Of a stretch of DNA of 32,000 bases, positions 2,731 through 32,000 are shown piece by piece. The stretch spans positions 2,100,001 through 2,132,000 of the forward strand of contig NZ_CP010904.1 of assembly GCF_001017655.1 (NCBI RefSeq). Reading direction: 5' to 3'. The stretch comes from Kiritimatiella glycovorans. GTDB taxonomy: Bacteria; Verrucomicrobiota; Kiritimatiellia; Kiritimatiellales; Kiritimatiellaceae. The position numbers and the translations under genes were made by a program. Under the pieces are notes generated by a model. That model saw only the letters and a list, made by a program, of their open reading frames with translations, was not told where the DNA came from and ran no database searches. Positions within the stretch are counted from its first letter, which is position 1. Each line of letters starts with the position of its first letter.

Positions 2731-2830
2731 GGACAGGACACCGGGGACATTATGCGTGCTCGACTTCGTGGTAACGGAGAGGTTGGGATGCGTCATAAAG
2801 CGGGACGCCCCGCTGAGGAGGACAGGGATA

Positions 2831-5985: not shown

Positions 5986-8109
5986 CTACCGGTTCATCCC
6001 GCGATCGCCCTCCTGCGGAAGGTGCGGCTGAAGGACGGTGCGGTTCGCCTGCCGGGCGGTGCGGAAGGCCTCGCATGCCCGCCGGTGGAGTTCGGCCTGG
6101 CTGCGCACTTTTTTGCGTTTCGCCGCCTTCGTACGGCTCCAGTTCCCGTCGGGTCCCAGCGTCCAGCTCTTTTCCGAATCGCTGAAGTGGACATCGAGGA
6201 TCTTTCGCAGCCGTTTCCGGGAGGGGGCATCGTCGACCGGCACCAGCACCTCGACCCGCCGGTCGAGGTTGCGCGGCATCCAGTCGGCGCTGCCGATATA
6301 CGTGAGGTGTTCGCCGCCGTGGCGGAAGCGAAAGACCCGCGCATGTTCCAGGAAGCGGTCGATGATGCTCAGCACGGTAATGTTCTCGCTCAACCCTTTC
6401 ACGCCGGGTCGCAGGCAGCAGATCCCGCGCACGTTCAGCCGGATGCGGACGCCCGCCTTTGACGCCTCGTACAGTTTCCCGATCATGCCGGGATCGACGA
6501 GCGAATTCATCTTGGCGTCGATCGCCGCCTTCTGTCCCTGCCGGCTGCGCTCGATCTCCTGCTCGATCAGCGCGACGAGGCCGTCGCGCATATGGATCGG
6601 CGCCATCAGCAGGCCGTTGAAATGCCGGGGCTGCGAATAGCCGCAGACGGCGTTGAAGAACGATGACGCGTCCGCGCCCAGGTTCGGATCGGACGTCATG
6701 TAGCTCAGATCGCCGTAGACCCGGGCGGTCACTTCGTTGAAGTTTCCGGTCCCGTAGTGGACATAGCGGACGATTCCGTCCGGCTCGCGGCGCATGACGA
6801 TACAGACTTTCGCGTGCGTCTTGAGTCCGCGCACGCCGTAGATCACCTGGACGCCCGACTGTTCGAGCTGGCGTGCCCACTCGATGTTGCGGGCCTCGTC
6901 GAACCGCGCGCGCAGTTCGACCACGGCCGTCACGTATTTATTCGACTCCGCCGCGCGTTTGAGGGCCTCGACGACCGGGCTGTTCCTGCTGGTGCGGTAG
7001 AGGACCTGCTTGATGGCCAGCACGTCCGGGTCGGCGGCCGCCTCCTCGATAAAACGGACCACGGGGTCGAAGGATTCGTACGGATGATACAGCAGCAGGG
7101 ACCGCTCCGAGATCTGGTCGAACATGGGCCTGCCGGGATCCACTTCCGGCGAAGGCTGCGGCGGCCAGGGCTCGAACTTGTGTTCGTCGAAGCCCTCCAT
7201 ATCGGCCAATGCGCCGAAATCGTTCAGGTTCAGGGGACCGTGGACGGGAAACACTTCGGGGCGCTTCAGTCCGAGCCGATCCTGCAGGCGGGACCGGAGT
7301 TCATGGGAAGCCGCGCCTTCGATCTCCAGCCGCACCGGACCGCTCTGTTTGCGCGCCTCCAGCACCTCCTCCATGCCGCTCAACAGGTCCGGCGCCTCGT
7401 CCTCCTGGACCGCCAGGTCCGCGTTGCGCGTGACCCGGAACGCCGCGGCCTCCTGCACCGGCCGGCCGGGAAACCACTCGGCCGCGTGCATGCGCACGAC
7501 ATCCTCGAGCGTCATGTAGTGGTAGAGTTCATCGCGGGACGGCAGCGAAAAGAAGCGGTGGGTGGCCCTTCCCAGGGGCATCACCGCCAGTTCCGTGCCG
7601 CCGTCTTCTCCGCCCGAGAGCAGGACGGCCATATGCAGTTCCAGGTTATGGATCAGCGGCATCGGCCCCTCGGCTTCGATCGACATCGGCGTGATCAGCG
7701 GGAAGAGCTGTTCCTCGAAGGCGGAGCGGAGAAAGCGGCGCGGCTCGCTTTCCACTTCCTCCGGACGCGCGCGGCGTATGCCCGCGCGCGCCAGCGCGGG
7801 TTCGAGGTCCTCGCGATAGCATGCGTACTGGGTTTCGACCATCGACCGCACCCGCTTGAGTATCGCCTTGAGCTGGCCGGCGGGCGTCAGCCCCGAGGGG
7901 TCTTTTTTGCGCTTGCCCTCCCGGCGCTGGAGCTGCAGTCCGCCCACGCGGACCATGAAAAACTCGTCGAGGTTCGAGGCGGTGATGGACAGGAACCGGA
8001 GCCGTTCGAGCAGCGGCGTCCCGGGGTCGCGGGCCTCGGCGAGGACGCGGTCGTTGAAATCGAGCCAGCTCAACTCCCGATTGATGAAATGCGAACGATC
8101 GGGCGCCAT
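5986..8109 (-). CDS. ppk1: Polyphosphate kinase 1
   Basis: N-terminus FINRELSWLDFNDRVLAEARDPGTPLLERLRFLSITASNLDEFFMVRV is the canonical PPK1 N-domain. Two PLD-like C-domains are present (HAKVCIVMRRE, GSADWMPRNLDRRVEV). Length is 707 aa. Confidence 0.95.
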   Translation of the reverse strand: MAPDRSHFINRELSWLDFNDRVLAEARDPGTPLLERLRFLSITASNLDEFFMVRVGGLQLQRREGKRKKDPSGLTPAGQLKAILKRVRSMVETQYACYREDLEPALARAGIRRARPEEVESEPRRFLRSAFEEQLFPLITPMSIEAEGPMPLIHNLELHMAVLLSGGEDGGTELAVMPLGRATHRFFSLPSRDELYHYMTLEDVVRMHAAEWFPGRPVQEAAAFRVTRNADLAVQEDEAPDLLSGMEEVLEARKQSGPVRLEIEGAASHELRSRLQDRLGLKRPEVFPVHGPLNLNDFGALADMEGFDEHKFEPWPPQPSPEVDPGRPMFDQISERSLLLYHPYESFDPVVRFIEEAAADPDVLAIKQVLYRTSRNSPVVEALKRAAESNKYVTAVVELRARFDEARNIEWARQLEQSGVQVIYGVRGLKTHAKVCIVMRREPDGIVRYVHYGTGNFNEVTARVYGDLSYMTSDPNLGADASSFFNAVCGYSQPRHFNGLLMAPIHMRDGLVALIEQEIERSRQGQKAAIDAKMNSLVDPGMIGKLYEASKAGVRIRLNVRGICCLRPGVKGLSENITVLSIIDRFLEHARVFRFRHGGEHLTYIGSADWMPRNLDRRVEVLVPVDDAPSRKRLRKILDVHFSDSEKSWTLGPDGNWSRTKAAKRKKVRSQAELHRRACEAFRTARQANRTVLQPHLPQEGDRGMNR

Positions 8110-8114
8110 GGTAT

Positions 8115-9683
8115 CTACTCCCCTCTGCGGGAAGGCCGCAGCACGACCTTCCGTCCGTAAATCTGCTCGAAAAACCGCCCCTTTTCACGCAGGGCCATGT
8201 TCTCGAGGGTGACATCCCCCGGCCGGGCGGCCTCGATCACGACCCGGTCCGGCTCCACCGTCACACTCATATCGCGCAGATGCTGGGCGTGCCCCCGGTC
8301 GAGGGCGTCGGCTACGCGAAGGATCGAGGCCAGTTTACTGACCGTCAGCTTCCGGCTCCGGTCGAGCTGCATGTAGTCCTCGTGCGTCGGCCGCGGAACG
8401 GCGCGGCGGTGATAGCGCGCCACCAGCGCAGCCAGTTTGAGATCCTCGCCGCTCAGTCCGAAGATGTCGCTGTTCTCGATCAGGTACTGGGTGTGTTTGT
8501 GATGGCTGCGGTTGCTGATGTACGTGCCGATGTCGTGCAGCCAACCTGCCACGATGAGCAGCACTTCGTAATGAAAGGAAAGCTGATGCTCGTCACGGAG
8601 CGCATCGAAGAGTTTGCGCGCGGCCGTAACCACCACTTCCGCATGCGCGTAGTCGTAGTCGAATTTGCGCCCGACCTCCTGGACCGAGGCCAGGATCTGC
8701 TCGACGAAATCGGAGGTCCACGCGCTTCCGGCGGCCATCTCGGCAATCAGTCCGTCGCGCAGCGTAGGAGTGCCGGTGTACACGTAACGGAGGTTCAACG
8801 CCTCCGCCAGGCGCACCTGGGTGAGCAGCGCGGGACCCAGCGTCTCCGCGTCGCTGTACGAAAGATGATAACGGCGCACCAGCTCGTCCACGGAATAGCC
8901 GAGCATCTCGTCGGCCAGTTTAGCCAGCCGGGTGACGGCGATGCGCTGCACGGCGCCGCCCTGTTTCGCGCCGAGGCGCGCGGCGGCGAACCGCGCCTCG
9001 CCGCCCAGGTAGAGAATAACCGGGGATTTCCGCCCGCGGAACGTCTCGCGTATCTGGCGCACGCCGGTACGCGCCTCGGAGTCGAGGATCTCGCGCAGCT
9101 GCGCCTGCGGCTGGCGGTAGTCCTCCAGCATCTCGCGCAGCCGGAACGCGCCGATGCGGTAGGTGTGAGCAAAGGCCACGCGCCCCTGGCGGAACCCGAG
9201 GATTTCCGTGCTGCCGCCCCCCACTTCGACCACCAGAAGCTGGTCGCTGAGGAGCGCTTCGTGCTCGCGCAAAAGGGCCTGGACGCTGAAGAACGTCAGC
9301 CGGTTCACCTCCGCCCCGTCGATGGCCTCGACGGGGATGCCGGTGGCGATGTAGAGGCGGTCGAGGAAGGCGTCGCGGTTGCGCGCCTCGCGGACGGCGC
9401 TGGTGGCGACGGCGCGCAGGCAGTCGGGGTGATCGATCCGGTACTGGCGGAGCACCTCGCGGAAACTGCGCAGCACCCGCACGCACTCTTCGGTCGTCGA
9501 GAGCCGGATCCGTCCGGTGGTAAAGGTGTCGCGTCCGAGACCGACGCCCTGCTGGAGCGACTCGAGCATCTCGACGGATCCGTCTCCGGCGATCTGCGCG
9601 ACCGCCATGCGCACGGACGTTGCCCCGATATCGATCACGGCCCGCACCCGGTATTCCACCTGCTCTGTGGATCCCTGCTTCAA
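8115..9683 (-). CDS. ppx: Exopolyphosphatase / guanosine pentaphosphate phosphohydrolase (Ppx/GppA) with C-terminal HD domain
   Basis: ASKHA-fold motifs are present (AVIDIGATSVRMAV, VEVGGGSTE), and the HD region is WLHDIGTYISNRSHHKHTQYLI. The start is TTG at 9683, 4 nt after the upstream stop. No ATG lies upstream of the conserved DIGATS motif; GTG at 9659 is an alternative. Confidence 0.9.
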   Translation of the reverse strand: MKQGSTEQVEYRVRAVIDIGATSVRMAVAQIAGDGSVEMLESLQQGVGLGRDTFTTGRIRLSTTEECVRVLRSFREVLRQYRIDHPDCLRAVATSAVREARNRDAFLDRLYIATGIPVEAIDGAEVNRLTFFSVQALLREHEALLSDQLLVVEVGGGSTEILGFRQGRVAFAHTYRIGAFRLREMLEDYRQPQAQLREILDSEARTGVRQIRETFRGRKSPVILYLGGEARFAAARLGAKQGGAVQRIAVTRLAKLADEMLGYSVDELVRRYHLSYSDAETLGPALLTQVRLAEALNLRYVYTGTPTLRDGLIAEMAAGSAWTSDFVEQILASVQEVGRKFDYDYAHAEVVVTAARKLFDALRDEHQLSFHYEVLLIVAGWLHDIGTYISNRSHHKHTQYLIENSDIFGLSGEDLKLAALVARYHRRAVPRPTHEDYMQLDRSRKLTVSKLASILRVADALDRGHAQHLRDMSVTVEPDRVVIEAARPGDVTLENMALREKGRFFEQIYGRKVVLRPSRRGE

Positions 9684-9687
9684 GATA

Positions 9688-11154
9688 CTACGTCATCCCG
9701 TGGAGGTTTTTCTGATGTTCTTCGGACGTGTAGGCCGCCCACAGTTCCTCAAATCGCGCCCACGCCTCTTCGCGTTTACGCCCCAGCAGTTCGCACAGTC
9801 TGGCGGGCCGGTGTTCGTCTTTTGTTAACGCCTCGAGATGCACGTCGCAGTCGTGGATGTCGCCGAGCGCCGTCGCCAGGTCGTCGAGCCGATCGGCCAG
9901 GTCCTTCATGCCACCGCCGAAGACGGGGGCCGCGAATTCGGCGAAGTAGCGCAGCCGGCGCACCCGTTTCCTGAGATGGTGCAGCGCTTCGGGGGCGTCG
10001 CGCAGCGGGCCGGTCTCCGTGGCGGCGATCTCCCCGTTCAGCTTGCGGATTTTCTTCGACATGATTCCGGCGGCGGAGCGGGGTTTGTCTTCGCGTATCC
10101 GCTCGGGGATTTCGACGCGCGTCAACCGCACCAGATCCTCGACCAGTTCCGCGTACCACTCCGTCTCCAGGATCTCCGGAAGCTTCTTTTCAAGCTCGTC
10201 CCTGCGCGCACGCTGACGGTCGAGATAGGGAGGATATTCGGGATCGCCGGCCGCCGCGGACGTGAACTCGTCCGACTCGAGCATCTGCACCCAGACGTGC
10301 TGATCCCGGGCCTCGCTGAGCTGGTTGCACGCTTCCCTGATGCCGCGCTCGACGCGGGAGGCGGCGGTTGTTTTAAGCGGCCCCCGGAACAGACGCAGCA
10401 CCATCCGGAACCGCCGCGCGGATACCCGGTAGTCGTGGAGATATTCGGGATCCTTCCCCTCCAGCATCCCCGGCGTGTTGTCGCGCATCAGATCGTAGAG
10501 TGCGCAGAGCAGTTTGCGCGCCGCGGGCAGCGCATCGTCCTTCCCGCGAAGCACGCCTTTGAAGTTCGACGTCTTCTGCTTCCCCTCCCCGCCGCAGACC
10601 CGGAGCGGGAGCGGAAACACCTCGTCCCACAGGTCGGCCTTGCGCTGCGCGCAATCCGCGTTCGCGCGGTACCAGCGCGTCTTGACGTCCAGCCGCACCG
10701 CATCCTCCCGGAAGGACATCGCGCGGATCTTCGCGTCCTGAATGTGTCCGTGATCGAGTCCGTCCGCGACCCGGAGAATCGCGGCCAGACGCCGGACGCC
10801 GGGATCTTCGAGTTCCGGGGCCAGGTCCGCGAGCATGGACGATGCCGCTTCCGGGGTTCCGCGATGAGAGGCCGCCACCGCGGCCACGCGCCGCACCCGG
10901 CTCTCCTCCCATTCGCCGATTCCCTCGCGAAGGATAATCTCGGCGCTCATGACCTCGTGCTGCGGGGGATTCAGGGCGAACCCGATATCGTGCAGCCTCG
11001 CCGCGGTTTCCAGTACGTCCCGGTCGCCGGCCTCGAGCCCGAACACCGGGGCGGCGGCGTCAAAGAGGGTCCGGGCCAGCCTCGCCACATACTTCGTATG
11101 CGGGTCCTCGTTGCGGTAGAGCCGGCACAGCCTGTTTATTTCCTTCTTTTTCAT
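9688..11154 (-). CDS. HD-domain (Ppx C-terminal-like) protein fused to a CHAD domain
   Basis: The N-terminal HTKYVARLARTLFD...AARLHDIGF resembles the Ppx HD module. CHAD hallmarks are LHDYRVSARRFRMVLRLF, ARDQHVW, LHHLRKRVRRLRYFAEF and LGDIHDCDV. GGGAGG abuts the ATG with an unusually short spacer. Confidence 0.85.
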   Translation of the reverse strand: MKKKEINRLCRLYRNEDPHTKYVARLARTLFDAAAPVFGLEAGDRDVLETAARLHDIGFALNPPQHEVMSAEIILREGIGEWEESRVRRVAAVAASHRGTPEAASSMLADLAPELEDPGVRRLAAILRVADGLDHGHIQDAKIRAMSFREDAVRLDVKTRWYRANADCAQRKADLWDEVFPLPLRVCGGEGKQKTSNFKGVLRGKDDALPAARKLLCALYDLMRDNTPGMLEGKDPEYLHDYRVSARRFRMVLRLFRGPLKTTAASRVERGIREACNQLSEARDQHVWVQMLESDEFTSAAAGDPEYPPYLDRQRARRDELEKKLPEILETEWYAELVEDLVRLTRVEIPERIREDKPRSAAGIMSKKIRKLNGEIAATETGPLRDAPEALHHLRKRVRRLRYFAEFAAPVFGGGMKDLADRLDDLATALGDIHDCDVHLEALTKDEHRPARLCELLGRKREEAWARFEELWAAYTSEEHQKNLHGMT

Positions 11155-21871: not shown

Positions 21872-23365
21872 TCACTCCGCTTCCCCGGCCACCAGGAGTT
21901 CGACCCGGTGAAATCCGCGTCCCGCCGGCTCGAGTCCGCCGTAGATCTCTCCGAACAGGCGACGGTAGTCGTCCTCATGCCCGCGCGGGTGGCTGATCAT
22001 GAGCACCACGCTATCCGCCTGACGCAGGTCCGGGCAGGCCTCGAACAGTGACTCGCGTGCATCGATGCGGCGGTCGGGCAGTCCGGTAAGTTCGAGTTCC
22101 GGTGCGTAGAATCCGAGCGGAAGCGTCATGTAATCGCAGTAGACGGCCACGGCGTCGGGATCGATCGCGCGCAGTTCCGCCGCCACGGCGCGCCAGTCGG
22201 GTTGCGCCCGCGCCTCCGCGCGCGCGACGCGCACGAGGCCCGCCGTATTGACCGCCAGGAACAGGGCCGCGGCCGCGAAGATCAGGGGACGCGCCCTTCC
22301 CCGCGCCAGCGTCAGTCCCGCGGCCAGCGGGACGAACAGCGCCGGAGCGCCGGCGGCGACGTAGCGGGTGTCGTCGTAGAGCCCTTCCATCCGGAAGGAG
22401 GCCAGCCAGACGAGCACGAGCGGCGCGGCCAGCAGCACGGCCGCGCAGACGACGGGCGCGGCGGCGGCGCGTTCGCCGCGCCGCCGCCACAGCACACCCA
22501 GCGCCGCGAGGGGAAAGAGCGCCAGCAGCAGCCCCGGGATTGCGGCGCGGAGCGCCTCCGCGCGCCCCGCGAGTTCGACCAGCCCGTGTCCCCCCGCAAA
22601 AGCGAAGAACGTGAAGGGGATAACAAGTCCCGTGGAGGGGTACCAGGCGCTCCCCCCGCCCTTCGCCGCCGCCTGCAGCAGGAAGCCGGTCAGCCAGTAG
22701 GCGTACAGTCCGGCGAGCACCAGCCCCGCCGCGCCCCAGCGCGGCCAGGCGCGGGGGCGAAAGGCCGCCAGACACGCCCACGCACAGGCGGCGTAGACGA
22801 TCCCGAGGTAATGACTCGCCATCGTGAACCACCCCGCGAGCACGAGCCCGGTCAACGCCCCGGCGCGTGGACGGTCGTCGCGCAGGCACCTGAACAGAAA
22901 GAAGAGGAGCCAAGCCCCGCCGCACTCCAGCAGGGCGTACATGCGTGCCTCGCGGGCCAGCAGCACGGAGTATACGCTCAGCGCGGCCAGCAGCCCCGCT
23001 GCCAAACCGGCCCGCCGGCCCGCCCACGCGCGGGCGGCGGCCATCACCCCCGCCACCCCGGCCAGGCTGACGAGCACCGTCATCGCACGCAACGCCGTCT
23101 CCCGCGTGGCGCCCGACGATTCGAGCAGGGCGTATCCGCTGCGCAGCCACCCCCAGGTCATCGTGTAAAACAGCGTGGGGTGCGGCTCGCTGCGGTTGAC
23201 CTCGGAGAGCGGATCGAACACCTGCCGCAGGGAGGCGCGCTCCGCGAAGCGGAATGAATAGGCCTCGTCGAGATTGAACGTCCGCGCAGGCAGATTCCAC
23301 AGGCGCGGGAGCAGCGCCAGCAGCAGACAGAGTATCCATCCCGCGATCTCGACGCGTCGGCTCAT
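21872..23365 (-). CDS. Integral-membrane glycosyltransferase, family 39 / ArnT-PMT-like
   Basis: About 10 or more hydrophobic segments are present. The N-terminal loop NLDEAYSFRFA...SEPHPTLFYTMTWGW is typical of ArnT-like enzymes. GGGAGGG lies 5 nt upstream of the ATG. Confidence 0.8.
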   Translation of the reverse strand: MSRRVEIAGWILCLLLALLPRLWNLPARTFNLDEAYSFRFAERASLRQVFDPLSEVNRSEPHPTLFYTMTWGWLRSGYALLESSGATRETALRAMTVLVSLAGVAGVMAAARAWAGRRAGLAAGLLAALSVYSVLLAREARMYALLECGGAWLLFFLFRCLRDDRPRAGALTGLVLAGWFTMASHYLGIVYAACAWACLAAFRPRAWPRWGAAGLVLAGLYAYWLTGFLLQAAAKGGGSAWYPSTGLVIPFTFFAFAGGHGLVELAGRAEALRAAIPGLLLALFPLAALGVLWRRRGERAAAAPVVCAAVLLAAPLVLVWLASFRMEGLYDDTRYVAAGAPALFVPLAAGLTLARGRARPLIFAAAALFLAVNTAGLVRVARAEARAQPDWRAVAAELRAIDPDAVAVYCDYMTLPLGFYAPELELTGLPDRRIDARESLFEACPDLRQADSVVLMISHPRGHEDDYRRLFGEIYGGLEPAGRGFHRVELLVAGEAE

Positions 23366-26652: not shown

Positions 26653-27609
26653 ATGAAGACGCTACTGATGACGCTGACCGCCGCGGGCCTTCTCATCGGC
26701 ACCGGGACAGCCGGGTCCACGCTCGACGGATCCCCCTGGAGCTGGGACAAGGACCCCGGGAAGAGCCTGACGCTGACGGGCCCGTCCGGGGTCGTCTGCC
26801 GACTGAACTTCGATGCGGACGAACCGAAACCCTGGATTCATCCGCTCAATACGACCGACGGGCGTACCCTGACGTGGCTCAGCCCGCCGGACCACCCCTG
26901 GCACTGGGGCCTGTGGTTCTCGTGGAAGTACATCAATCACGTCAATTTCTGGGAAATGAACCGCAAGACGGGAAGGATCGCGGGCCGGACGACGATCCGC
27001 AACGCGGAGATCGTGCAGGCCGACCGGGAGGCGGGCGTGGTGCGCATGACGCTCGAGTACGCGCCGCGCGACCGCGAGGGCGAGCCCTGGATGCGCGAGA
27101 CGCGCACGATCCGCATCGGCACGCCGCGGCCGGACGGGAGCTACCGGATCGACTGGGCGATGCGGTGCACCGCCCTGAGCGATCTCGAACTCGGGCGCAA
27201 CCCGAAACCGAGACGCGGATACGGGGGCTTTTCCTTTCGCGGCGCGAAAGGGTTCTTCCCGGTCACGATGCGCGGCGCCGGAGGCCGGCCCGGGAATGAC
27301 CTCTTCGGCCAGCGCGCGCCGTGGGCCTCCGCGTCGGGTCCGGTCGACGGCAAAACCGCCGCCGTGGCGATCTTCGACCACCCCTCCAATCCGGACCACC
27401 CCGCGCACTGGTTCGTGAGAAGCCGCAAGATAGGCGACGGACAACCGTACACGTTTCTCAACCCCGCCCTGCTCTACGAGGAGGACCGCACGCTGCAAGC
27501 GGGCGAGACCATGGACCTGATCTACGGCGTACTCGTGGTTCCGCACGAAGCGGAGGACGAGGTGCTCGAGGCCGAATTCGTGCGCTTCGGCCGGGAAACA
27601 GAACCGTAG
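26653..27609 (+). CDS. DUF6807 / 'PmoA-family' protein, paralog 1, with signal peptide
   Basis: GGAGCAGGAG lies upstream of the ATG. Signal peptide is MKTLLMTLTAAGLLIGTGTAG. The core KPWIHPLNT...DHPWHWGLWFSWKYINHVNFWE matches my memory of the DUF6807 signature (KPY.HPL...DH.HHRG.WF.W..VNG.DFW). Confidence 0.8.
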   Translation: MKTLLMTLTAAGLLIGTGTAGSTLDGSPWSWDKDPGKSLTLTGPSGVVCRLNFDADEPKPWIHPLNTTDGRTLTWLSPPDHPWHWGLWFSWKYINHVNFWEMNRKTGRIAGRTTIRNAEIVQADREAGVVRMTLEYAPRDREGEPWMRETRTIRIGTPRPDGSYRIDWAMRCTALSDLELGRNPKPRRGYGGFSFRGAKGFFPVTMRGAGGRPGNDLFGQRAPWASASGPVDGKTAAVAIFDHPSNPDHPAHWFVRSRKIGDGQPYTFLNPALLYEEDRTLQAGETMDLIYGVLVVPHEAEDEVLEAEFVRFGRETEP

Positions 27610-27686
27610 ACCTGATGGAGGACACGAAATCCCCGCACCCCTGACGCCGCGCCCCTCCGCCGGACCCGCGGCCGGGGCGGCGCCCG

Positions 27687-28691
27687 CTACCCGCGCGCGC
27701 GAAATGATTTCGGCGAAACCCCGACGCAGCGACGAAAAACCGTCGCAAAGTACTGGCTGGTCGAGAACCCACAGGCCATGGCGATCTCGGTAATGCTTCG
27801 ATCGGGCGCTGCGCGAAGCAGGTTCCTGGCACGTTCGATTCTCAGGTGATTGAGATACTGCATCGGGGTCTGGTTGGTGATCTCACGGCAGTAATGCGTG
27901 AACCGTGTCACCCCCAGCCCGCAATGCGCCGCCATGGTCTCCAGCGTCCACGGCTCCGCGGGATCCTCCGCCAGCCGCTCGAGAAACATTTTCGTCGATC
28001 TCGAGGCATGGCTGAGCGAAGGACTCAGCCGCAGTCGGCTCTCGCGCAGCGATTCGAGCAGAAGCAGCAGCAGTTCATTCACATAAATTGCTGCGCGCGA
28101 AACCGTACTCTCCCCACCCGCTCCGGACACCGTATCACCGAGCTTCGAGAAACATCGGCGCATCTCGACCGAGGCCTTGCGCACCGGCTCCTCGTTCTGG
28201 CGGAGGTAACGGGTCAGCTCACGCAGATCCGGTCCCGCCATCACCAGCCAGTCCGGCCAGTGCCAGGCCTGGTGCGGTTGCCGGACCCCGACGTCCAGAA
28301 TCAGCCAGTACAGCCGCCCCGGCCCCACCGCGGGATCGCCGAGGCAGTGAGCCTGCCACGGACGCGTGATCGCCATATCGCCGGGTTCCAGGTTTCGCCG
28401 CGCGCGCCCGACCCGGAAAGCCGTCCCGCCGGTCTCCTGCAGGGTAATCTCGATGCCCTCGTTGCGGTGCCACGGAAGCCCCCAGCTCTGCGGGCGCGCG
28501 GCGTCCCAGAATCCGACGCTGCGCAACCCCTCCAGGTCGCCGCTCCTGAGACGCCGGCCCGGATAGGTGCCGCGCGCCAGGGCCTCCATGTGAATCTCGC
28601 CGCCGCGCGCCGCCTCCGCCATCGGCGCGCAGGTGTCGGCGTGATACGTACGCCGCCCGGCATGATAGGATGGAACTTCACCGCCGATCAT
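27687..28691 (-). CDS. AraC-family transcriptional regulator (cupin sensor plus two HTH motifs)
   Basis: The C-terminal LETMAAHCGLGVTRFTHYCREITNQTPMQYLNHLRIERARNLL...ITEIAMACGFSTSQYFATVFRR is an AraC HTH pair. The start is uncertain. ATG at 28691 (GAGG 6 nt upstream) is preferred because 28740-28860 is AT-rich and looks non-coding. ATG at 28736 and the track start at 28844 are alternatives. Confidence 0.8.
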   Translation of the reverse strand: MIGGEVPSYHAGRRTYHADTCAPMAEAARGGEIHMEALARGTYPGRRLRSGDLEGLRSVGFWDAARPQSWGLPWHRNEGIEITLQETGGTAFRVGRARRNLEPGDMAITRPWQAHCLGDPAVGPGRLYWLILDVGVRQPHQAWHWPDWLVMAGPDLRELTRYLRQNEEPVRKASVEMRRCFSKLGDTVSGAGGESTVSRAAIYVNELLLLLLESLRESRLRLSPSLSHASRSTKMFLERLAEDPAEPWTLETMAAHCGLGVTRFTHYCREITNQTPMQYLNHLRIERARNLLRAAPDRSITEIAMACGFSTSQYFATVFRRCVGVSPKSFRARG

Positions 28692-28754
28692 GATCCGCCT
28701 CTCTCTCCCGCTGCGTCCCGCGTCCCGACGCAACATTCGCCCCAACCTCATCTT

Positions 28755-28775
28755 CCCCATTTGTATAATATCTTT
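28755..28775 (+). promoter_or_regulatory. Candidate -10 element for the TIM-barrel/DUF6807/oxidoreductase operon
   Basis: A perfect TATAAT at 28764-28769 sits within TTTGTATAATATC, ~95 nt upstream of the ATG at 28864. There is no good -35, which fits an activator-dependent (AraC) promoter. Confidence 0.35.
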
Positions 28776-28863
28776 CAACAACGGAATTCGAACGACAAAC
28801 GCGGTCATCCGGTGCGATGATGCCGCACCATAGAACAAAGTCATCGAACCGGGAGGTCGAATT

Positions 28864-29706
28864 ATGGATGTGGGACTGTTTCTTCTGATCGAGCCTTTCG
28901 CGAGCGTGGAGACGCAGCTTCAGCGGGTAAAGGAGCTGGGCTTCAGGCGCGCGGACATCACCGACACGAACGCCGGCGGGAGCATGCTTGGCTCGGCGGG
29001 CTTTTCGCCGACGGTGAGCCTGGACGAGAACCCCTTCGAGGTAAAACGCCTGTTCGAGCGCCACGGCATCACGCCGAGCGCCGTCTGCGCCCACGCTCTG
29101 CTGCTGGAACCCAGCAATCCCGGCAAGTACGGGACGGCGGAGATCATGAAGGCCATACGGTTCGCCGCGGCGATCGGCATCAGGGATGTGGTCACGACGG
29201 AGACGGACGCCCGTTCCGAGTGGGCGCAGCAGCTCACCTACGAAGAGAGCATCTTCACCGTGGCCGAGAAACTCTACACCCCGGTACAGATGGCGGGTGA
29301 TTACGGGGTACGGATCCTGCTCGAACCGCACGGCCCGATCACCGACACGATTCGCGGAATGCAGGACATCTTCGACAGGCTGGGCAATCCCGACGCCCTC
29401 GGCGTAAACCTCGACACGGGCAACGCGTGGCTAGGCGGCACCGATCCGGTGGAAATGGCGCGGGTGTTCCGCGAGAAGATCCACCATGTCCACTGGAAGG
29501 ATCTGGGACCGGAATGGGAGCCGAAGCGCGGCACGATGTTCGGATGCGGTTTTTCGAACATCGCGCTCGGGGACGGCGTCATCGACCTCCAGGGCGTCTG
29601 CGAAGTGCTCAGGGGGTGCGACATCGAGAGTTCGACGCTGGAGATTATCGGCGGCGACGACGTGCTCGTGCGCAGCGCGGAATTCCTGAAGGATCAAGGC
29701 GTATGA
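28864..29706 (+). CDS. Sugar phosphate isomerase/epimerase-like protein (xylose isomerase-like TIM barrel), cytoplasmic
   Basis: GGGAGG lies 7 nt upstream of the ATG. Family motifs are ILLEPHGPITD, NLDTGNAWLGG and HVHWKD. No signal peptide. Confidence 0.85.
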   Translation: MDVGLFLLIEPFASVETQLQRVKELGFRRADITDTNAGGSMLGSAGFSPTVSLDENPFEVKRLFERHGITPSAVCAHALLLEPSNPGKYGTAEIMKAIRFAAAIGIRDVVTTETDARSEWAQQLTYEESIFTVAEKLYTPVQMAGDYGVRILLEPHGPITDTIRGMQDIFDRLGNPDALGVNLDTGNAWLGGTDPVEMARVFREKIHHVHWKDLGPEWEPKRGTMFGCGFSNIALGDGVIDLQGVCEVLRGCDIESSTLEIIGGDDVLVRSAEFLKDQGV

Positions 29707-30653
29707 AAACTCTACGGGTTACGCTGATTACGACAACCTTACTGACCGGTGCGGTAACGGCCGGATCGACGCTGCAGGCCTCGCCGTGGAGCTGGGAAAA
29801 AGCGCCGGGCAAAAGCCTGACCCTGATGGGCCCGTCCGGAGTGGTCTGCCGTTTGAACTTCGATGCGAGCGAACCGAAACCGTACATCCACCCACTCAAC
29901 ACCTCGGACGGCCGCGGACTGACGTGGCTGAGCCCGCCGGACCACCCCTGGCACTGGGGCCTGTGGTTCTCCTGGAAATACATCAATCACGTCAATTTCT
30001 GGGAATTTCAGCGCGACACCGGAGAGATCGCGGGGCGAACGACGATCCGCAACGCGAAGATCGTGCAGGCCGACCGGAAGGCGGGCGTGGTGCGCATGAC
30101 GCTCGAATACGCACCGCGCGAACACGAGGGGAAACCCTGGATGCGCGAGACGCGCACGATCCGGATCGGTACGCCACGCCCGGACGGGAGCTATCGCATT
30201 GACTGGGCCATGGCGTGCACCGCCCTGCAGGATCTCGAGTTCGGACGCAATCCGAATCCCGGACGCGGATACGGGTGCTTCTCCTACCGCGGGGCGAAGG
30301 ATTTTGTGCCGGTCACGCTGCAGGACGCCGAAGGCCGGACCGACGGGGAGATCCATGGAAAGCGGGCACCGTGGGCGGTTGCGGCGGGGGCCGTGGACGG
30401 ACGTGAGGCGGCCGTCGCAATTTTCGACCATCCCTCGAACCCGGGTCATCCCACGCGGTGGTTCGTCATCAACCGCGCCCTCGGCCACGGCCCGTTCACC
30501 TACCTCAACCCCGCCCTGCTCTACGCACAGGACCGCAGCCTGAAGGCGGGCGAGACGATGACCCTGACGTACGGCGTACTCGTGGTTCCGCACGAAGCGG
30601 ATACTGAGAGGCTCGAGGCCGAGTTCGCAGAATTTGCCTTAAAAAAGGAGTAG
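29703..30653 (+). CDS. DUF6807 / 'PmoA-family' protein, paralog 2, with signal peptide
   Basis: The ATG overlaps the upstream stop (ATGA at 29703-29706). Signal peptide is MKTLRVTLITTTLLTGAVTAG. It shares exact runs of 29 aa and 26 aa with paralog 1. Confidence 0.8.
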   Translation: MKTLRVTLITTTLLTGAVTAGSTLQASPWSWEKAPGKSLTLMGPSGVVCRLNFDASEPKPYIHPLNTSDGRGLTWLSPPDHPWHWGLWFSWKYINHVNFWEFQRDTGEIAGRTTIRNAKIVQADRKAGVVRMTLEYAPREHEGKPWMRETRTIRIGTPRPDGSYRIDWAMACTALQDLEFGRNPNPGRGYGCFSYRGAKDFVPVTLQDAEGRTDGEIHGKRAPWAVAAGAVDGREAAVAIFDHPSNPGHPTRWFVINRALGHGPFTYLNPALLYAQDRSLKAGETMTLTYGVLVVPHEADTERLEAEFAEFALKKE

Positions 30654-30658
30654 ACCGG

Positions 30659-32000
30659 ATGAAGGAAATGAAATCTCAATCTCCGCACACCTCGCGCCGC
30701 GCCTTTCTCGGAGCCGCGACCGCTGCCGCGGCGGCCCCGGCCATCATTCCCTCCTCGGTTCTCGGAGCGCAGGCGCCATCGAATCAACTCACCTTCGCCG
30801 CGCTCGGCGTCGGCAATCGAGGCGCCGGGATCAGCAAAGGCTATTTCGCCGGACTCAAGGATGTACGCGTCGTCGCCGCGGCCGACTGCTGGAAGAGTCG
30901 GCGGGAACGCTTCGCGGCCGAGATCGACGAGATGGAGGGGGGGCGGGTCTGCACCCCCTATGCGGATTACCGCGAGGTGCTCGCGCGCGACGACATCGAC
31001 GGCGTGATCATCGGCACGCCCGATCACTGGCACGTCCCGCTGGCGATCCTCGCCGCACAGGCGGGCAAGCACATGTACGTCGAAAAGCCGCTCGGCACGT
31101 CGATGAAACTCGCCTGGCGGCTGCGCGACGAGATCCGCCGCAGCGGCGTGAAATTCCTCTACGGCACCCAGCAGCGTTCCCAGCCCCACTTCCGCAGGGC
31201 CTGCGAACTCGTGCTCAACGGCTATATCGGCGAGATTACGCGCGTGGAGGCCTGGTCGCCGGACATGTCGACCCAGTATGGGGTGCCGCACAATCCTCCG
31301 TACGGATCGACGATGGAGGCGCCGGTGCCGGACGATCTGAACTACGACATGTGGCTCGGCCCCGCACCGATGAAGCCGTACACGGTGGACCGCTGCGTGC
31401 GCGGCGGCCAGTGGCATATCTATGACTACGCGCTCGGATTCATCGCCGGCTGGGGCGCCCACCCGCTCGACATCGCCCAGTGGGGGCTGCAGCGGGATCA
31501 CACCAGCCCGGTGCGCTACGAAGGCACCGGCCATCAGCCCCCGCGCGGCGCACTCTGGGACACCACCGAATCGTGGGACATGACCTGCACCTACGCCGGC
31601 GGGCTGCCGATGCGGTTCATGGATTGTCGCGTCGCGAAACCCCTGGTGCGCGAGTACCACTACACCTTCCGCAATCACGGCACGACCTTTCACGGGACGG
31701 AGGGATGGATCAGTGTCGACCGCAACGCGCTCTATTCCTCCGGACGCAACCAATACACGAAGATCGAACTCAAGAACGGCGACACGCGGCTGCATGCGAG
31801 CGATCATCCCGGACGCGATCTCGTGCAGGCGATCAGGACCGGCGGCGAGACGGTGTGTCCGATCGAGGCGGCGATCCGGTCCGACACGATCAGCCATCTC
31901 ACCGATATCGTCGCCCGGACCGGCCGTTCGATCGAGTGGGATCCGGAACGCGAAAAGATCATCGGTGATCCCGAGGCGGAGAAGTTCCTCGACCGTCCGA
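30659..32000 (+). CDS. Gfo/Idh/MocA-family oxidoreductase with twin-arginine (Tat) signal; 3' end runs off the window
   Basis: This ORF is not in the supplied track because it has no stop in the window; I translated it by hand. It begins MKEMKSQSPHTSRRAFLGAATAAAAAPAIIPSSVLGA (Tat motif SRRAFLG). A Rossmann GVGNRG, then DGVIIGTPDHWH and YVEKPLG follow. The frame is open to 32000 and ends ...WDPEREKIIGDPEAEKFLDRP. AAGGAG lies 8 nt upstream of the ATG. Confidence 0.88.
   Translation, partial: MKEMKSQSPHTSRRAFLGAATAAAAAPAIIPSSVLGAQAPSNQLTFAALGVGNRGAGISKGYFAGLKDVRVVAAADCWKSRRERFAAEIDEMEGGRVCTPYADYREVLARDDIDGVIIGTPDHWHVPLAILAAQAGKHMYVEKPLGTSMKLAWRLRDEIRRSGVKFLYGTQQRSQPHFRRACELVLNGYIGEITRVEAWSPDMSTQYGVPHNPPYGSTMEAPVPDDLNYDMWLGPAPMKPYTVDRCVRGGQWHIYDYALGFIAGWGAHPLDIAQWGLQRDHTSPVRYEGTGHQPPRGALWDTTESWDMTCTYAGGLPMRFMDCRVAKPLVREYHYTFRNHGTTFHGTEGWISVDRNALYSSGRNQYTKIELKNGDTRLHASDHPGRDLVQAIRTGGETVCPIEAAIRSDTISHLTDIVARTGRSIEWDPEREKIIGDPEAEKFLDRP

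What the first reader, a model, noticed from the sequence alone, without database searches (positions are those of the whole stretch)
26653..32000. AraC-linked locus: Tat-exported Gfo/Idh/MocA oxidoreductase, two secreted DUF6807 ('PmoA-like') proteins and a cytoplasmic TIM-barrel isomerase-like enzyme
Seen: the TIM-barrel gene, DUF6807 paralog 2 and the oxidoreductase are translationally coupled (an ATGA overlap, then a 5-nt gap). They are divergent from an AraC regulator, and a second DUF6807 copy lies just beyond it. The oxidoreductase has an SRRAFLG Tat motif. Both DUF6807 proteins have Sec-type signal peptides. The TIM barrel has none.

Established:
- Zymomonas glucose-fructose oxidoreductase, a Gfo/Idh/MocA member, is Tat-exported with bound cofactor.
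- Gfo/Idh/MocA oxidoreductases paired with xylose-isomerase-like TIM-barrel proteins perform oxidation-assisted glycoside cleavage, for example the DgpA/DgpBC C-glycoside system and 3-keto-glycoside pathways.
- DUF6807 has no assigned biochemical function despite its 'PmoA' label.

Inference: this may be a periplasmic sugar or glycoside oxidation module in which DUF6807 is an obligate but uncharacterised partner (substrate-binding, lyase or hydratase role), with the product finished in the cytoplasm by the TIM barrel under AraC control.
Basis: partly seen in the sequence, partly recalled or inferred. Interest (0 to 1): 0.68.

Follow-up and report, generated by a model that had tools for sequence, protein, structure and literature searches.

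The report
Secreted DUF6807 partner of exported sugar oxidoreductase
This locus looks like a new variant of the bacterial pathway that cleaves glycosides by first oxidising the sugar, with an uncharacterised secreted protein family (DUF6807, wrongly labelled 'PmoA') as a frequent but not obligatory neighbour of the exported oxidoreductase.

Summary
They are the ATGA overlap, the 5-nt gap, the SRRAFLG Tat motif, the two DUF6807 paralogs, a signal-less TIM barrel and a divergent AraC gene.

The DUF6807–oxidoreductase link is real.
- In 80 species-level genomes, a Gfo/Idh/MocA (GFO) gene lies directly next to DUF6807 on the same strand in 33 (binomial P≈3e-31).
- 31 of those 33 GFOs carry a twin-arginine motif.
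- The closest of these neighbours are 50–57% identical to the window's GFO.

The link is not obligatory. Only about half of the closest GFO relatives have a DUF6807 neighbour. Copy 1 in this window has lost its own GFO and keeps only a ~90-nt relic of it.

DUF6807 models confidently as a soluble all-β fold resembling galactose mutarotase. It is not a methane-monooxygenase subunit. It has an invariant Asp/His/His/Glu/Arg/Tyr set and is often fused to ThuA.

The locus combines two conserved units: AraC with the TIM barrel, and DUF6807 with the Tat-GFO.

Best reading: a variant of the BT2156–2160 / Agrobacterium 3-keto-glycoside pathway, with DUF6807 carrying out a post-oxidation step in the periplasm. 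The chemistry is inferred, not shown.

The parts
26653..27609 (+). DUF6807 paralog 1 (318 aa). It has a secretion-type N-terminus, looks monocistronic, lies divergent from purH and converges on the AraC gene.
   Evidence: PF14100, E 7.7e-61. 76% identical to copy 2. dN/dS 0.24. Keeps every family-invariant residue.
27610..27700 (+). Relic of the 5' end of a GFO gene. It has the same 5-nt spacer, an ATG at 27615, remains of the Tat signal coding region, indels that break the frame and a TGA at 27642-27644. It overlaps the 3' end of the AraC gene.
   Evidence: About 75% DNA identity with 30654-30750, the spacer and start of the intact GFO gene. Sequence read.
27687..28691 (-). AraC-family regulator with a cupin sensor domain and an HTH_18 domain. 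The probable start is the Met at 28691. The ORF itself extends to 28844.
   Evidence: HTH_18 E 3e-22, plus weak Cupin_2 and AraC_binding matches. 58% and 50% identical over its full length to AraC genes divergent from orthologous TIM genes in L171 and L166. The alignments begin at residues 8 and 6 of the shorter form.
28692..28863 (.). Divergent intergenic region between the AraC gene and the TIM operon. It presumably holds the promoters and operator.
   Evidence: Sequence. The consensus scan found no sigma-70 match. Its function is inferred.
28864..29706 (+). Xylose-isomerase-like TIM barrel (280 aa) with no signal peptide and the conserved metal ligands E154, D184, H210 and E261.
   Evidence: PF01261, E 5e-26. 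Alignment A4. More than 120 clusters are 74-80% identical, nearly all exactly 280 aa. AF2 model pLDDT 82.6. Foldseek neighbours are UlaE, the AtHYD 2-hydroxy-3-keto-glucal hydratase, IolE, DgpBC and YcjR.
29703..30653 (+). DUF6807 paralog 2 (316 aa). It has a secretion-type N-terminus, and its start overlaps the TIM stop as ATGA.
   Evidence: PF14100, E 6.4e-59. Overlap. AF2 model pLDDT 92.9, all-β. Galactose-mutarotase-like fold matches.
30659..32000 (+). Tat-signal Gfo/Idh/MocA oxidoreductase. 447 codons are visible and about 7 are cut off by the window end. It starts 5 nt after the copy-2 stop.
   Evidence: SRRAFLG motif. PF01408 plus PF19051. NCBIfam BT_2158_fam glycoside 3-dehydrogenase, 124 bits, below the 750-bit cutoff. 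PDB 8tdf and 8tdh, E 1e-21 and 3e-19. 50-57% identical to GFOs next to DUF6807 in other phyla. C-terminus located from A8.

Best explanation
The locus encodes a modular, AraC-controlled pathway that processes a sugar or glycoside by oxidising it first. It is of the same kind as the Bacteroides BT2156-BT2160 operon and the Agrobacterium GlycDH/AtOGE/AtHYD/Gfo system.

Proposed steps (all chemistry is inferred):
1. The GFO is exported folded by the Tat system, with NAD(P) bound.
2. In the periplasm it oxidises a sugar hydroxyl of a glycoside, most likely at C3.
3. DUF6807, a secreted β-sandwich enzyme with a galactose-mutarotase-like fold, binds the keto-sugar intermediate. Using its invariant Asp/His/His/Glu/Arg/Tyr cluster, it catalyses the step after oxidation. 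That step is either β-elimination of the aglycone or hydration / ring chemistry of the resulting 2-hydroxy-3-keto-glycal.
4. The reduced GFO then reduces the 3-keto-sugar back to a sugar, so the cycle is redox-neutral.
5. The metal-dependent TIM barrel performs a further enolisation-type step (hydratase, eliminase or epimerase). This most likely happens in the cytoplasm on an imported product, because the protein has no signal peptide.

What is shown: the gene anatomy, the domain families, the fold, the conserved residues, the genomic association and the modular structure. The locus joins two conserved units, AraC with TIM and DUF6807 with Tat-GFO.

What is inferred: the substrate, the position oxidised, the reaction DUF6807 catalyses and the compartments.
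For: Association of DUF6807 with the GFO:
- A GFO is directly adjacent on the same strand in 33 of 80 species-level loci, and in 26 of 58 loci with full flanks. One lies within 2 kb in 48 of 80.
- GFO density is 15 per 10 kb next to DUF6807, against about 0.1 per 10 kb at 3-10 kb. Binomial P = 3e-31.
- The GFO is upstream in 10 loci and downstream in 23.
- The loci span Planctomycetota, Verrucomicrobiota, Lentisphaerota, Aminicenantes, Hydrogenedentota and Ignavibacteria.
- 31 of the 33 adjacent GFOs carry an RR motif.
- The closest of the adjacent GFOs are 50-57% identical to the window's GFO; the rest range down to about 29%.

The pair behaves as a unit:
- Five loci have DUF-GFO-DUF(-GFO) arrays.
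- In the window, copy 1 still carries a relic of the GFO start.

Links to 3-keto-sugar enzyme families:
- Other neighbours of DUF6807 are enriched for ThuA (6), DUF1080 3-keto-disaccharide hydrolase (5), enolase-superfamily proteins and sugar transporters.
- Of 70 multidomain DUF6807 proteins scanned, 36 are fused to ThuA and 14 to a galactose-binding F5/8 domain.
- A ThuA-DUF6807 fusion is followed directly by a GFO.

Known pathways match this layout:
- In Bacteroides, the Tat-GFO BT2158 works with either the TIM barrel BT2156 or the DUF1080 protein BT2157 as the minimal cleaving pair.
- In Agrobacterium, the eliminase and the hydratase are both TIM barrels and a Gfo enzyme reduces 3-keto-glucose.
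- The window TIM barrel's fold neighbours include AtHYD, YcjR and DgpBC.
- The GFO's best family match is BT_2158_fam.

DUF6807 looks like an enzyme:
- The model is high-confidence and has a carbohydrate-type fold.
- D80, H81, H84, E149, Y190 and R196 are invariant or nearly so across 112 sequences. E101, R182, K92, H243 and N246 are also strongly conserved.
- The family has about 5,000 clusters at 50% identity.
- For this GFO subfamily, DUF6807 (19 of 80) and TIM (18 of 80) are the leading non-GFO partners. DUF1080 appears once.
Against: - No activity has been measured for any DUF6807 protein. The substrate is unknown.
- The GFO scores far below the BT2158 equivalog cutoff (124 against 750 bits), and only its N-terminal 280 residues align. 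C3 oxidation of a glycoside is therefore an extrapolation.
- The fold matches for DUF6807 have low TM-scores (0.25-0.45), and many are to non-catalytic domains such as the YidC P1 domain and the N-terminal domains of glycoside hydrolases.
- The association is not obligatory in either direction.
- DUF1080 occurs alongside DUF6807 in some loci, so simple replacement is not established.
- The TIM barrel has no signal peptide, unlike BT2156. No transporter is conserved in the module.
- Fusions to cytochrome c, cupredoxin and HEAT domains hint at a redox-related role instead.
Confidence: 0.45

Rival explanations
1. DUF6807 is a non-catalytic carbohydrate-binding or specificity subunit. It would deliver or position substrates for the periplasmic GFO, or help it fold or dock.
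For: Its fold class is dominated by non-catalytic sugar-binding or scaffold domains, including the YidC P1 domain and the N-terminal domains of GH36, GH65 and GH94 enzymes. The conserved motif is rich in tryptophan, as in sugar-stacking sites. The family is often fused to CBM-like F5/8 domains. It sits tightly next to a single GFO subfamily.
Against: An invariant set of Asp, His, His, Glu, Arg and Tyr across a very large and divergent family is more typical of a catalytic or metal site. Many DUF6807 genes lack any nearby GFO. Copy 1 in this window persists under purifying selection without its own GFO.
Confidence: 0.2
2. DUF6807 is a redox accessory. Like ThuA in ThuAB-type dehydrogenases, it would help re-oxidise the exported GFO's bound cofactor or pass electrons to periplasmic carriers, possibly through a His/Asp/Glu metal site.
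For: The commonest fusion partners are ThuA (36 of 70) and HEAT repeats (32 of 70). There are also fusions to cytochrome c (5) and cupredoxin (2). A periplasmic NAD(P) enzyme needs an electron outlet. The DHxxH...E motif could bind a metal.
Against: There is no haem motif, no Cys-rich motif and no known cofactor-binding fold. The fold is of a carbohydrate type. BT2158-type enzymes run redox-neutral cycles without such a partner. No redox carrier is encoded in the visible part of the window locus.
Confidence: 0.12
3. The module does not cleave glycosides. It would act on a free sugar, a cyclitol or a sugar derivative, for example by Iol-like oxidation and dehydration, or by 3-keto-sugar epimerisation as in YcjS/YcjR. 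DUF6807 would act as a mutarotase- or epimerase-like enzyme on the periplasmic product.
For: The TIM barrel and the GFO give weak IolE and IolG hits, and JGI names the TIM orthologs 'inosose dehydratase'. Fold neighbours include ketose 3-epimerases, UlaE and YcjR. The DUF6807 fold resembles aldose 1-epimerases. One TIM ortholog lies next to a sugar ABC transporter.
Against: The Iol scores are far below their cutoffs: 35 against 290 bits and 73 against 355 bits. A Tat-exported GFO plus a secreted partner is not the layout of Iol or Ycj pathways, which I recall as being cytoplasmic. The neighbourhood is enriched for 3-keto-disaccharide hydrolase, ThuA, sulfatases and CBM domains, which points to glycans.
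Confidence: 0.15
4. The adjacency is incidental. GFO genes are so numerous in these genomes that the two genes merely happen to be neighbours, and DUF6807 and the GFO have unrelated functions.
For: These genomes carry many GFO paralogs, and several loci hold 2-4 of them. The association is not universal.
Against: Background GFO density at 3-10 kb predicts about 2 adjacent cases in 80, but 33 are observed (P = 3e-31). The adjacent GFOs nearly all carry Tat motifs, and the closest are 50-57% identical to the window's GFO. Adjacency survives changes of gene order across phyla, and the pair duplicates as a unit.
Confidence: 0.03

Closest known systems
Bacteroides thetaiotaomicron BT2156-BT2160 operon (oxidative cleavage of disaccharides and glucosinolates through 3-keto-glycosides)
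   Same: It has a dedicated regulator, a Tat-exported GFO oxidoreductase with bound NAD (BT2158), a xylose-isomerase-like TIM barrel (BT2156) and a second, secreted, non-TIM partner. The GFO plus one partner forms the minimal cleaving unit. The window GFO's best family match is BT_2158_fam.
   Different: The secreted partner here is DUF6807, not DUF1080 (BT2157). The regulator is AraC-type, not SusR-type. No second, cytoplasmic GFO like BT2159 is visible. The TIM barrel lacks the signal peptide that BT2156 has. The GFO is well below the equivalog cutoff and has a divergent C-terminal half.
Agrobacterium tumefaciens GlycDH / AtOGE / AtHYD / Gfo pathway (β-elimination of 3-keto-O-glycosides)
   Same: It proceeds by oxidation, Mn-dependent TIM-barrel β-elimination, TIM-barrel hydration of 2-hydroxy-3-keto-glucal, and reduction by a Gfo enzyme. 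AtHYD (8ro4) is among the top fold matches of the window TIM barrel, and AtOGE (8bvk) is a weak profile hit.
   Different: The oxidase there is an FAD enzyme with a Tat partner protein, not a Tat-GFO. Both post-oxidation steps use TIM barrels and there is no DUF6807.
ThuAB (rhizobial and Agrobacterium trehalose/sucrose-isomer 3-dehydrogenase)
   Same: A GFO-family dehydrogenase (ThuB) works with an accessory protein of unknown role (ThuA) to make 3-keto-disaccharides. ThuA is the commonest fusion partner of DUF6807 and a common neighbour.
   Different: The visible part of the window locus encodes no ThuA. The role of ThuA is itself unresolved.
Zymomonas mobilis glucose-fructose oxidoreductase
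   Same: It is a GFO-family enzyme exported by Tat with tightly bound NADP, and it runs a redox-neutral ping-pong cycle in the periplasm. Sequence hits reach E about 1e-10.
   Different: The relationship is distant, it has no partner proteins and it acts on free sugars.
DgpA / DgpBC C-glycoside deglycosidase and E. coli YcjS / YcjR
   Same: A GFO oxidoreductase is paired with xylose-isomerase-like TIM enzymes acting on 3-keto-glycosides. DgpA is a sequence hit (E 3e-13), and DgpBC and YcjR are fold hits.
   Different: From memory, these systems are cytoplasmic, with no Tat signal. They have no DUF6807. Similarity to the GFO is limited to the Rossmann domain.
Galactose mutarotase / aldose 1-epimerase fold class
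   Same: The DUF6807 model has the same all-β sandwich topology, with Foldseek probability about 1 against 3k25, 3dcd, 2cir and the N-terminal domains of GH36 and GH65 enzymes. From memory, catalytic members use His/Glu acid-base chemistry on sugars.
   Different: There is no detectable sequence similarity: no PDB hit even with a profile and no Aldose_epim Pfam hit. TM-scores are only 0.25-0.45.

Membership tests
Pfam PF14100 (DUF6807, formerly 'PmoA') | Match to the family HMM above the gathering score | tested here: met
   Copy 1 scores 206.5 bits and copy 2 scores 200.2 bits against a 27-bit cutoff, each nearly full length.
Particulate methane monooxygenase subunit A (true PmoA) | Polytopic integral membrane protein of the AMO/pMMO family | tested here: not met
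   The AF2 model (pLDDT 92.9) is an all-β soluble domain behind an N-terminal signal-like segment. The only Pfam hit is PF14100. The fold matches sugar-binding sandwich domains.
BT2156-2160-type oxidative glycoside-cleavage system | Tat-exported GFO glycoside 3-dehydrogenase equivalent to BT2158 | tested here: inconclusive
   The Tat motif and GFO domains are present. BT_2158_fam is the top NCBIfam hit, but at 124 bits against a 750-bit cutoff, and it covers only residues 12-285. The position oxidised was not testable.
BT2156-2160-type oxidative glycoside-cleavage system | DUF1080 (PF06439) 3-keto-disaccharide hydrolase partner | tested here: not met
   No PF06439 hit among the five locus proteins. 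DUF6807 occupies the position of the secreted partner.
BT2156-2160-type oxidative glycoside-cleavage system | Xylose-isomerase-like TIM partner located outside the cytoplasm | tested here: not met
   The TIM barrel is present (PF01261). It has no signal peptide and no upstream in-frame start, whereas BT2156 has a signal peptide. Co-export with the Tat-GFO was not testable.
BT2156-2160-type oxidative glycoside-cleavage system | Formation and cleavage of a 3-keto-glycoside intermediate | not testable with these tools
   This requires enzyme assays.
Agrobacterium AtOGE/AtHYD-type 3-keto-glycoside TIM enzymes | Metal-dependent TIM barrel with the E-D-H-E ligand set and close similarity to AtOGE or AtHYD | tested here: inconclusive
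   The ligands E154, D184, H210 and E261 are conserved. AtHYD (8ro4) ranks fifth by fold (E 3e-13, TM 0.71), but UlaE, IolE, ketose epimerases and DgpBC score about the same. AtOGE (8bvk) is only E 1e-3 by profile.
myo-Inositol catabolism IolG / IolE | Scores above the equivalog cutoffs for TIGR04380 and TIGR04379 | tested here: not met
   73 bits against a 355-bit cutoff and 35 bits against a 290-bit cutoff.
Aldose 1-epimerase / galactose mutarotase family | Sequence membership and the catalytic His/His/Glu arrangement | tested here: not met
   Similarity is at fold level only. There are no sequence or profile hits to any solved structure. The 3D arrangement of conserved residues could not be inspected because no coordinates were accessible.
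Tat substrates | Twin-arginine consensus S/T-R-R-x-F-L-K followed by a hydrophobic region | tested here: met
   The GFO has TSRRAFLGAATAAAAAPAII at residues 11-30. RR motifs are present in 31 of the 33 GFOs adjacent to DUF6807, most of them matching the consensus.

The most novel reading that the evidence does not exclude
DUF6807 may be a third, independently evolved class of enzyme that processes 3-keto-glycosides, alongside the xylose-isomerase-like TIM barrels and DUF1080. It would be a secreted eliminase or hydratase with a mutarotase-like fold, working with Tat-exported GFO dehydrogenases (and ThuA). If so, it would define a widespread periplasmic route of oxidative glycan breakdown in Planctomycetota, Verrucomicrobiota and related phyla.
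Probability: 0.33. Interest if true: 0.75.

Novelty: new variant of a known kind. Interest (0 to 1): 0.6.

Why it matters
- PF14100 is a large family, with about 5,000 clusters at 50% identity. No paper I could find addresses its function.
- It was long labelled 'PmoA', and at least two metagenomic studies have used it as a methane-monooxygenase marker. Showing that it is a soluble, secreted, carbohydrate-type β-sandwich tied to exported sugar oxidoreductases corrects that label.
- The result gives a concrete assay to run: GFO plus DUF6807, with and without the TIM barrel, on glycosides and 3-keto-glycosides.
- Oxidative, non-hydrolytic cleavage of glycosides was recognised only recently. Planctomycetes, Verrucomicrobia and their relatives carry very large unexplained expansions of Tat-GFO, ThuA, DUF1080 and TIM genes.
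- A new module in this toolkit would help explain how these environmentally abundant glycan degraders work. It could also yield broad-specificity deglycosylation catalysts.

Tried and rejected
- Looking up the window's own contig to see genes downstream of the GFO: the protein is not on record. The operon's end therefore remains unseen.
- Sequence and profile searches of DUF6807 against PDB: no hits, even at E = 10.
- Literature searches for DUF6807, PF14100, 'PmoA family protein' and IPR029475: nothing on function.
- The Cheng 2017 cosmid has a PF14100 gene between two reported β-galactosidases and next to an enolase-family gene. The PF14100 gene itself was not tested there.
- The Nature 2024 oxidative glycan-breakdown paper is not held in the library.
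- Promoter, terminator and repeat scans of the locus: uninformative.
It was redone with database homologs.
- A search for Art22, a PDB neighbour of the TIM barrel, was unproductive.
- A direct DUF6807-GFO fusion was looked for and not found among 70 multidomain proteins.
- The idea that DUF1080 and DUF6807 are strictly mutually exclusive was rejected, because they co-occur in some loci.
- Co-folding of DUF6807 with the GFO was not attempted. So I could not check whether the conserved residues cluster in 3D.

Full report
**Observation.** The region holds five genes and one gene relic.
- DUF6807 copy 1 lies at 26653-27609 (+).
- An AraC-family regulator lies on the minus strand with its stop at 27687. 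Ortholog alignments put its start at 28691 rather than at the ORF's first ATG at 28844.
- A xylose-isomerase-like TIM barrel lies at 28864-29706 (+).
- DUF6807 copy 2 lies at 29703-30653 (+).
- A Gfo/Idh/MocA (GFO) oxidoreductase runs from 30659 to the window end. An alignment with relatives shows that only about 7 C-terminal residues are missing.

All Pfam assignments are far above threshold. The signal-peptide calls rest on a hydrophobicity heuristic, the low-confidence N-terminus of the model, and the fact that the fold starts at about residue 29. The TIM barrel's first β-strand spans residues 2-6, and there is no upstream in-frame start. No terminator-like site lies between the three co-oriented genes. 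The rest of the window carries housekeeping genes: ppk/ppx/CHAD, a class II aminoacyl-tRNA synthetase, ligA, purL and purH. It has no transporter or glycosidase genes.

**A duplication relic.** The two DUF6807 genes are 76% identical in protein and 77.5% in DNA. dN/dS is 0.24, so both are under purifying selection. The similarity does not stop at the stop codon of copy 1. The next ~90 nt (27610-27700) align at about 75% identity with the spacer and 5' end of the intact GFO gene. They include the 5-nt spacer, the ATG and the Tat-signal coding region, but indels break the frame and there is an early TGA. Copy 1 therefore arose by duplication of a DUF6807-GFO pair and later lost its GFO. The same pair appears in DUF-GFO-DUF(-GFO) arrays in five other genomes (L030, L063, L067, L072, L073). 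The pair behaves as a unit in evolution.

**Is the association real?** I scanned one genome per species for relatives of DUF6807. 358 loci were found and the best 80 kept. They come from Planctomycetota, Verrucomicrobiota, Lentisphaerota, Aminicenantes, Hydrogenedentota, Ignavibacteria and others. I located GFO, TIM and AraC homologs in them with iterated HMMs.
- A GFO gene lies within 150 nt on the same strand in 33 of 80 loci, and in 26 of 58 loci with full flanks. One lies within 2 kb in 48 of 80.
- GFO density is 15 per 10 kb directly next to DUF6807, against 0.04-0.17 per 10 kb at 3-10 kb in the same loci.
- Using that internal background, the binomial P is 3e-31.
- The GFO is upstream in 10 loci and downstream in 23, so adjacency has survived rearrangement.
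- 31 of the 33 adjacent GFOs carry an RR motif, most of them a canonical [ST]RRxF[LI].
- The closest adjacent GFOs are 50-57% identical to the window's GFO over the full length. That is closer than the DUF6807 proteins are to each other (36-46%).

**The reverse test.** I scanned metagenome contigs for relatives of this GFO subfamily.
- DUF6807 is adjacent in 7 of 15 loci whose GFO is at least 50% identical to the window's, or 5 of 11 with full flanks.
- It is adjacent in 3 of 11 loci at 45-50% identity and in about 1 of 27 at 40-45%.
- Across all 80 loci, DUF6807 (19) and the TIM barrel (18) are the leading non-GFO partners. ThuA follows with 6, and DUF1080 appears once.

The partnership is therefore strong and specific, but not obligatory. 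The closest DUF6807 homologs point the same way. One sits among sulfatases, and another sits before LutAB-like genes and a DUF1080 gene. Neither has a GFO nearby.

**What DUF6807 is.**
- The AF2 model is confident (pLDDT 92.9, pTM 0.89). It is all-β and has no membrane helices.
- Foldseek places it in the galactose-mutarotase-like fold class. Matches include the YidC periplasmic domain, N-terminal domains of GH36, GH65 and GH94 enzymes, and the aldose-1-epimerase-like proteins 3k25, 3dcd and 2cir. Probability is about 1, E is 1e-5 to 1e-4, and TM-scores are only 0.25-0.45.
- No sequence or profile hit exists in PDB. The old 'PmoA' label is wrong.
- Across 112 diverse sequences, D80, H81, H84, E149, Y190 and R196 are invariant or nearly so (copy-2 numbering). 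E101, R182, K92, H243, N246 and several Trp residues are also strongly conserved. Both window copies keep all of them. This pattern favours a catalytic or metal site over a simple lectin.
- The family has 5,078 clusters at 50% identity with E ≤ 1e-3.
- More than half of the top representatives are multidomain. Among 70 scanned, the fused domains were ThuA (36), HEAT repeats (32), the galactose-binding F5/8 type C domain (14), cytochrome c (5) and cupredoxin (2). None was fused to a GFO.
- A ThuA-DUF6807 fusion is followed directly by a GFO with the same domain pattern as the window's.
- Among 121 other neighbours of DUF6807, the most frequent families are ThuA (6), DUF1080 3-keto-disaccharide hydrolase (5), enolase-superfamily proteins (4) and sugar transporters.

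**The other components.**
- The GFO's best curated match is NCBIfam BT_2158_fam, 'glycoside 3-dehydrogenase', at E 7e-36. The score is only 124 bits against a 750-bit cutoff, and only residues 12-285 align.
- Its best solved relatives are 8tdf and 8tdh, followed by DgpA, GFOR and a glucuronide 3-dehydrogenase.
- The TIM barrel is unusually well conserved. More than 120 clusters are 74-80% identical, nearly all exactly 280 aa, and the few that sources name are from Planctomycetota (Phycisphaerae, Planctomycetaceae, Thermoguttaceae).
- Those TIM orthologs occur in several settings. Some are alone. Some are divergent from an AraC that is 50-58% identical to the window's regulator. Some have Tat-type GFOs and an LRR lipoprotein, and one has a sugar ABC transporter. 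None of the five contexts examined has a DUF6807 gene.
- The TIM model (pLDDT 82.6) is closest in fold to UlaE, the Agrobacterium 2-hydroxy-3-keto-glucal hydratase AtHYD, IolE, DgpBC, ketose 3-epimerases and the 3-keto-glucoside epimerase YcjR. All score about equally.
- The E-D-H-E metal ligands are conserved.

The locus is therefore a composite of two conserved units: AraC with TIM, and DUF6807 with Tat-GFO. In this genome they are joined by an ATGA overlap. The same four-gene set recurs in other lineages, sometimes in a different order and sometimes with a different TIM subfamily: L004, L010, L050, L054 and L069.

**Comparison with known systems.**
- In B. thetaiotaomicron, the Tat-exported GFO BT2158 works with either the TIM barrel BT2156 (β-glucosides) or the DUF1080 lipoprotein BT2157 (α-glucosides) as the minimal unit. 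Together they cleave disaccharides and glucosinolates through 3-keto intermediates, under a dedicated regulator.
- In A. tumefaciens, oxidation is followed by a TIM-barrel β-eliminase (AtOGE), a TIM-barrel hydratase (AtHYD) and a Gfo reductase.
- The window has the same logic: a regulator, an exported GFO, a TIM barrel and a second secreted partner. The differences are that the secreted partner is DUF6807, the TIM barrel lacks a signal peptide, and the GFO belongs to a distinct subfamily.

**Most likely mechanism (inferred).** The GFO oxidises a glycoside in the periplasm. DUF6807 carries out the elimination or hydration step on the keto-intermediate. The GFO then reduces the keto-sugar, closing a redox-neutral cycle. 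The TIM barrel does a further enolisation-type step, probably in the cytoplasm. Alternatively, it could be co-exported bound to the Tat-GFO. I put about 0.45 on this reading. The rivals are:
- a non-catalytic binding or specificity subunit (0.2);
- a non-glycoside substrate with epimerase- or Iol-like chemistry (0.15);
- a redox accessory role suggested by the ThuA, cytochrome and cupredoxin fusions (0.12);
- coincidence (0.03).

**Verdict.** The pathway type is known, but a DUF6807 module in it is not described in any paper I could search. I rate it a new variant of a known kind, with interest 0.6.

Noticed in passing
window 27610-27700: A ~90-nt relic of a GFO gene's 5' end follows the stop of DUF6807 copy 1. 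It has the spacer, the ATG and the Tat-signal coding region, but the frame is broken. It overlaps the 3' end of the AraC gene. It marks a former second DUF6807-GFO pair.
   Followed up: yes
window 30240-30270 (copy 2, around residues 183-189) and the same place in copy 1: Both window DUF6807 proteins lack about 7 residues of the loop after invariant R182 (family consensus '...PGEPxGxxxGGYAGLS'). This sets them apart from nearly all homologs in alignment A2.
   Followed up: partly
window 28864-29706; loci L165-L172: The TIM barrel is far more conserved than its operon partners. More than 120 clusters are 74-80% identical, nearly all exactly 280 aa. Its closest orthologs often stand alone or with only the orthologous AraC. 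No explanation was found for this degree of constraint.
   Followed up: partly
L050 13187-14416; L165 8182-9372; L166 3304-4452: An LRR protein of about 390-410 aa recurs directly after a Tat-type GFO in clusters that contain AraC and TIM. It starts with a lipoprotein-like signal (hydrophobic stretch followed by Cys). It is another uncharacterised periplasmic partner.
   Followed up: no
L074 8656-9933, L047 12268-13497 and other loci: Enolase-superfamily (MR_MLE) genes lie next to DUF6807 in 4-6 loci, and at least one carries a Tat-like signal. The same enolase-PF14100 pairing sits between two reported 'novel β-galactosidases' on soil cosmid Lac161 (PMC5342196).
   Followed up: partly
proteins P0126, P0127, P0128, P0130 (1,070-1,510 aa): These are giant secreted proteins with the domain order ThuA, HEAT repeats, F5/8 type C, DUF6807. 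Related fusions carry cytochrome c or cupredoxin domains.
   Followed up: partly
literature (PMC7914226, PMC10291797): PF14100 has been used under its old name 'PmoA' as an HMM marker for methane oxidation in metagenomic studies. The family is a soluble secreted β-sandwich and is not a pMMO subunit.
   Followed up: partly
window 27687-28844 (-): The AraC ORF's first ATG (28844) would leave only 19 nt before the TIM start. Ortholog alignments support the internal Met at 28691, which gives a 172-nt divergent control region.
   Followed up: yes
window 2756-5953 (+): A 1,065-aa protein whose only recognisable domain is a C-terminal F5/8 type C (galactose-binding) domain. The same domain is found fused to DUF6807 elsewhere.
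   Followed up: no
window 21872-23365 (-): A 497-aa hydrophobic, apparently multi-pass membrane protein with no Pfam hit. It lies in the window's highest-GC stretch (0.73, strong AT skew), next to a GT9 glycosyltransferase gene.
   Followed up: no
window 5986-11154 (-): A polyphosphate gene cluster: ppk1, a Ppx/GppA phosphatase, and a protein with CHAD and HD domains.
   Followed up: no
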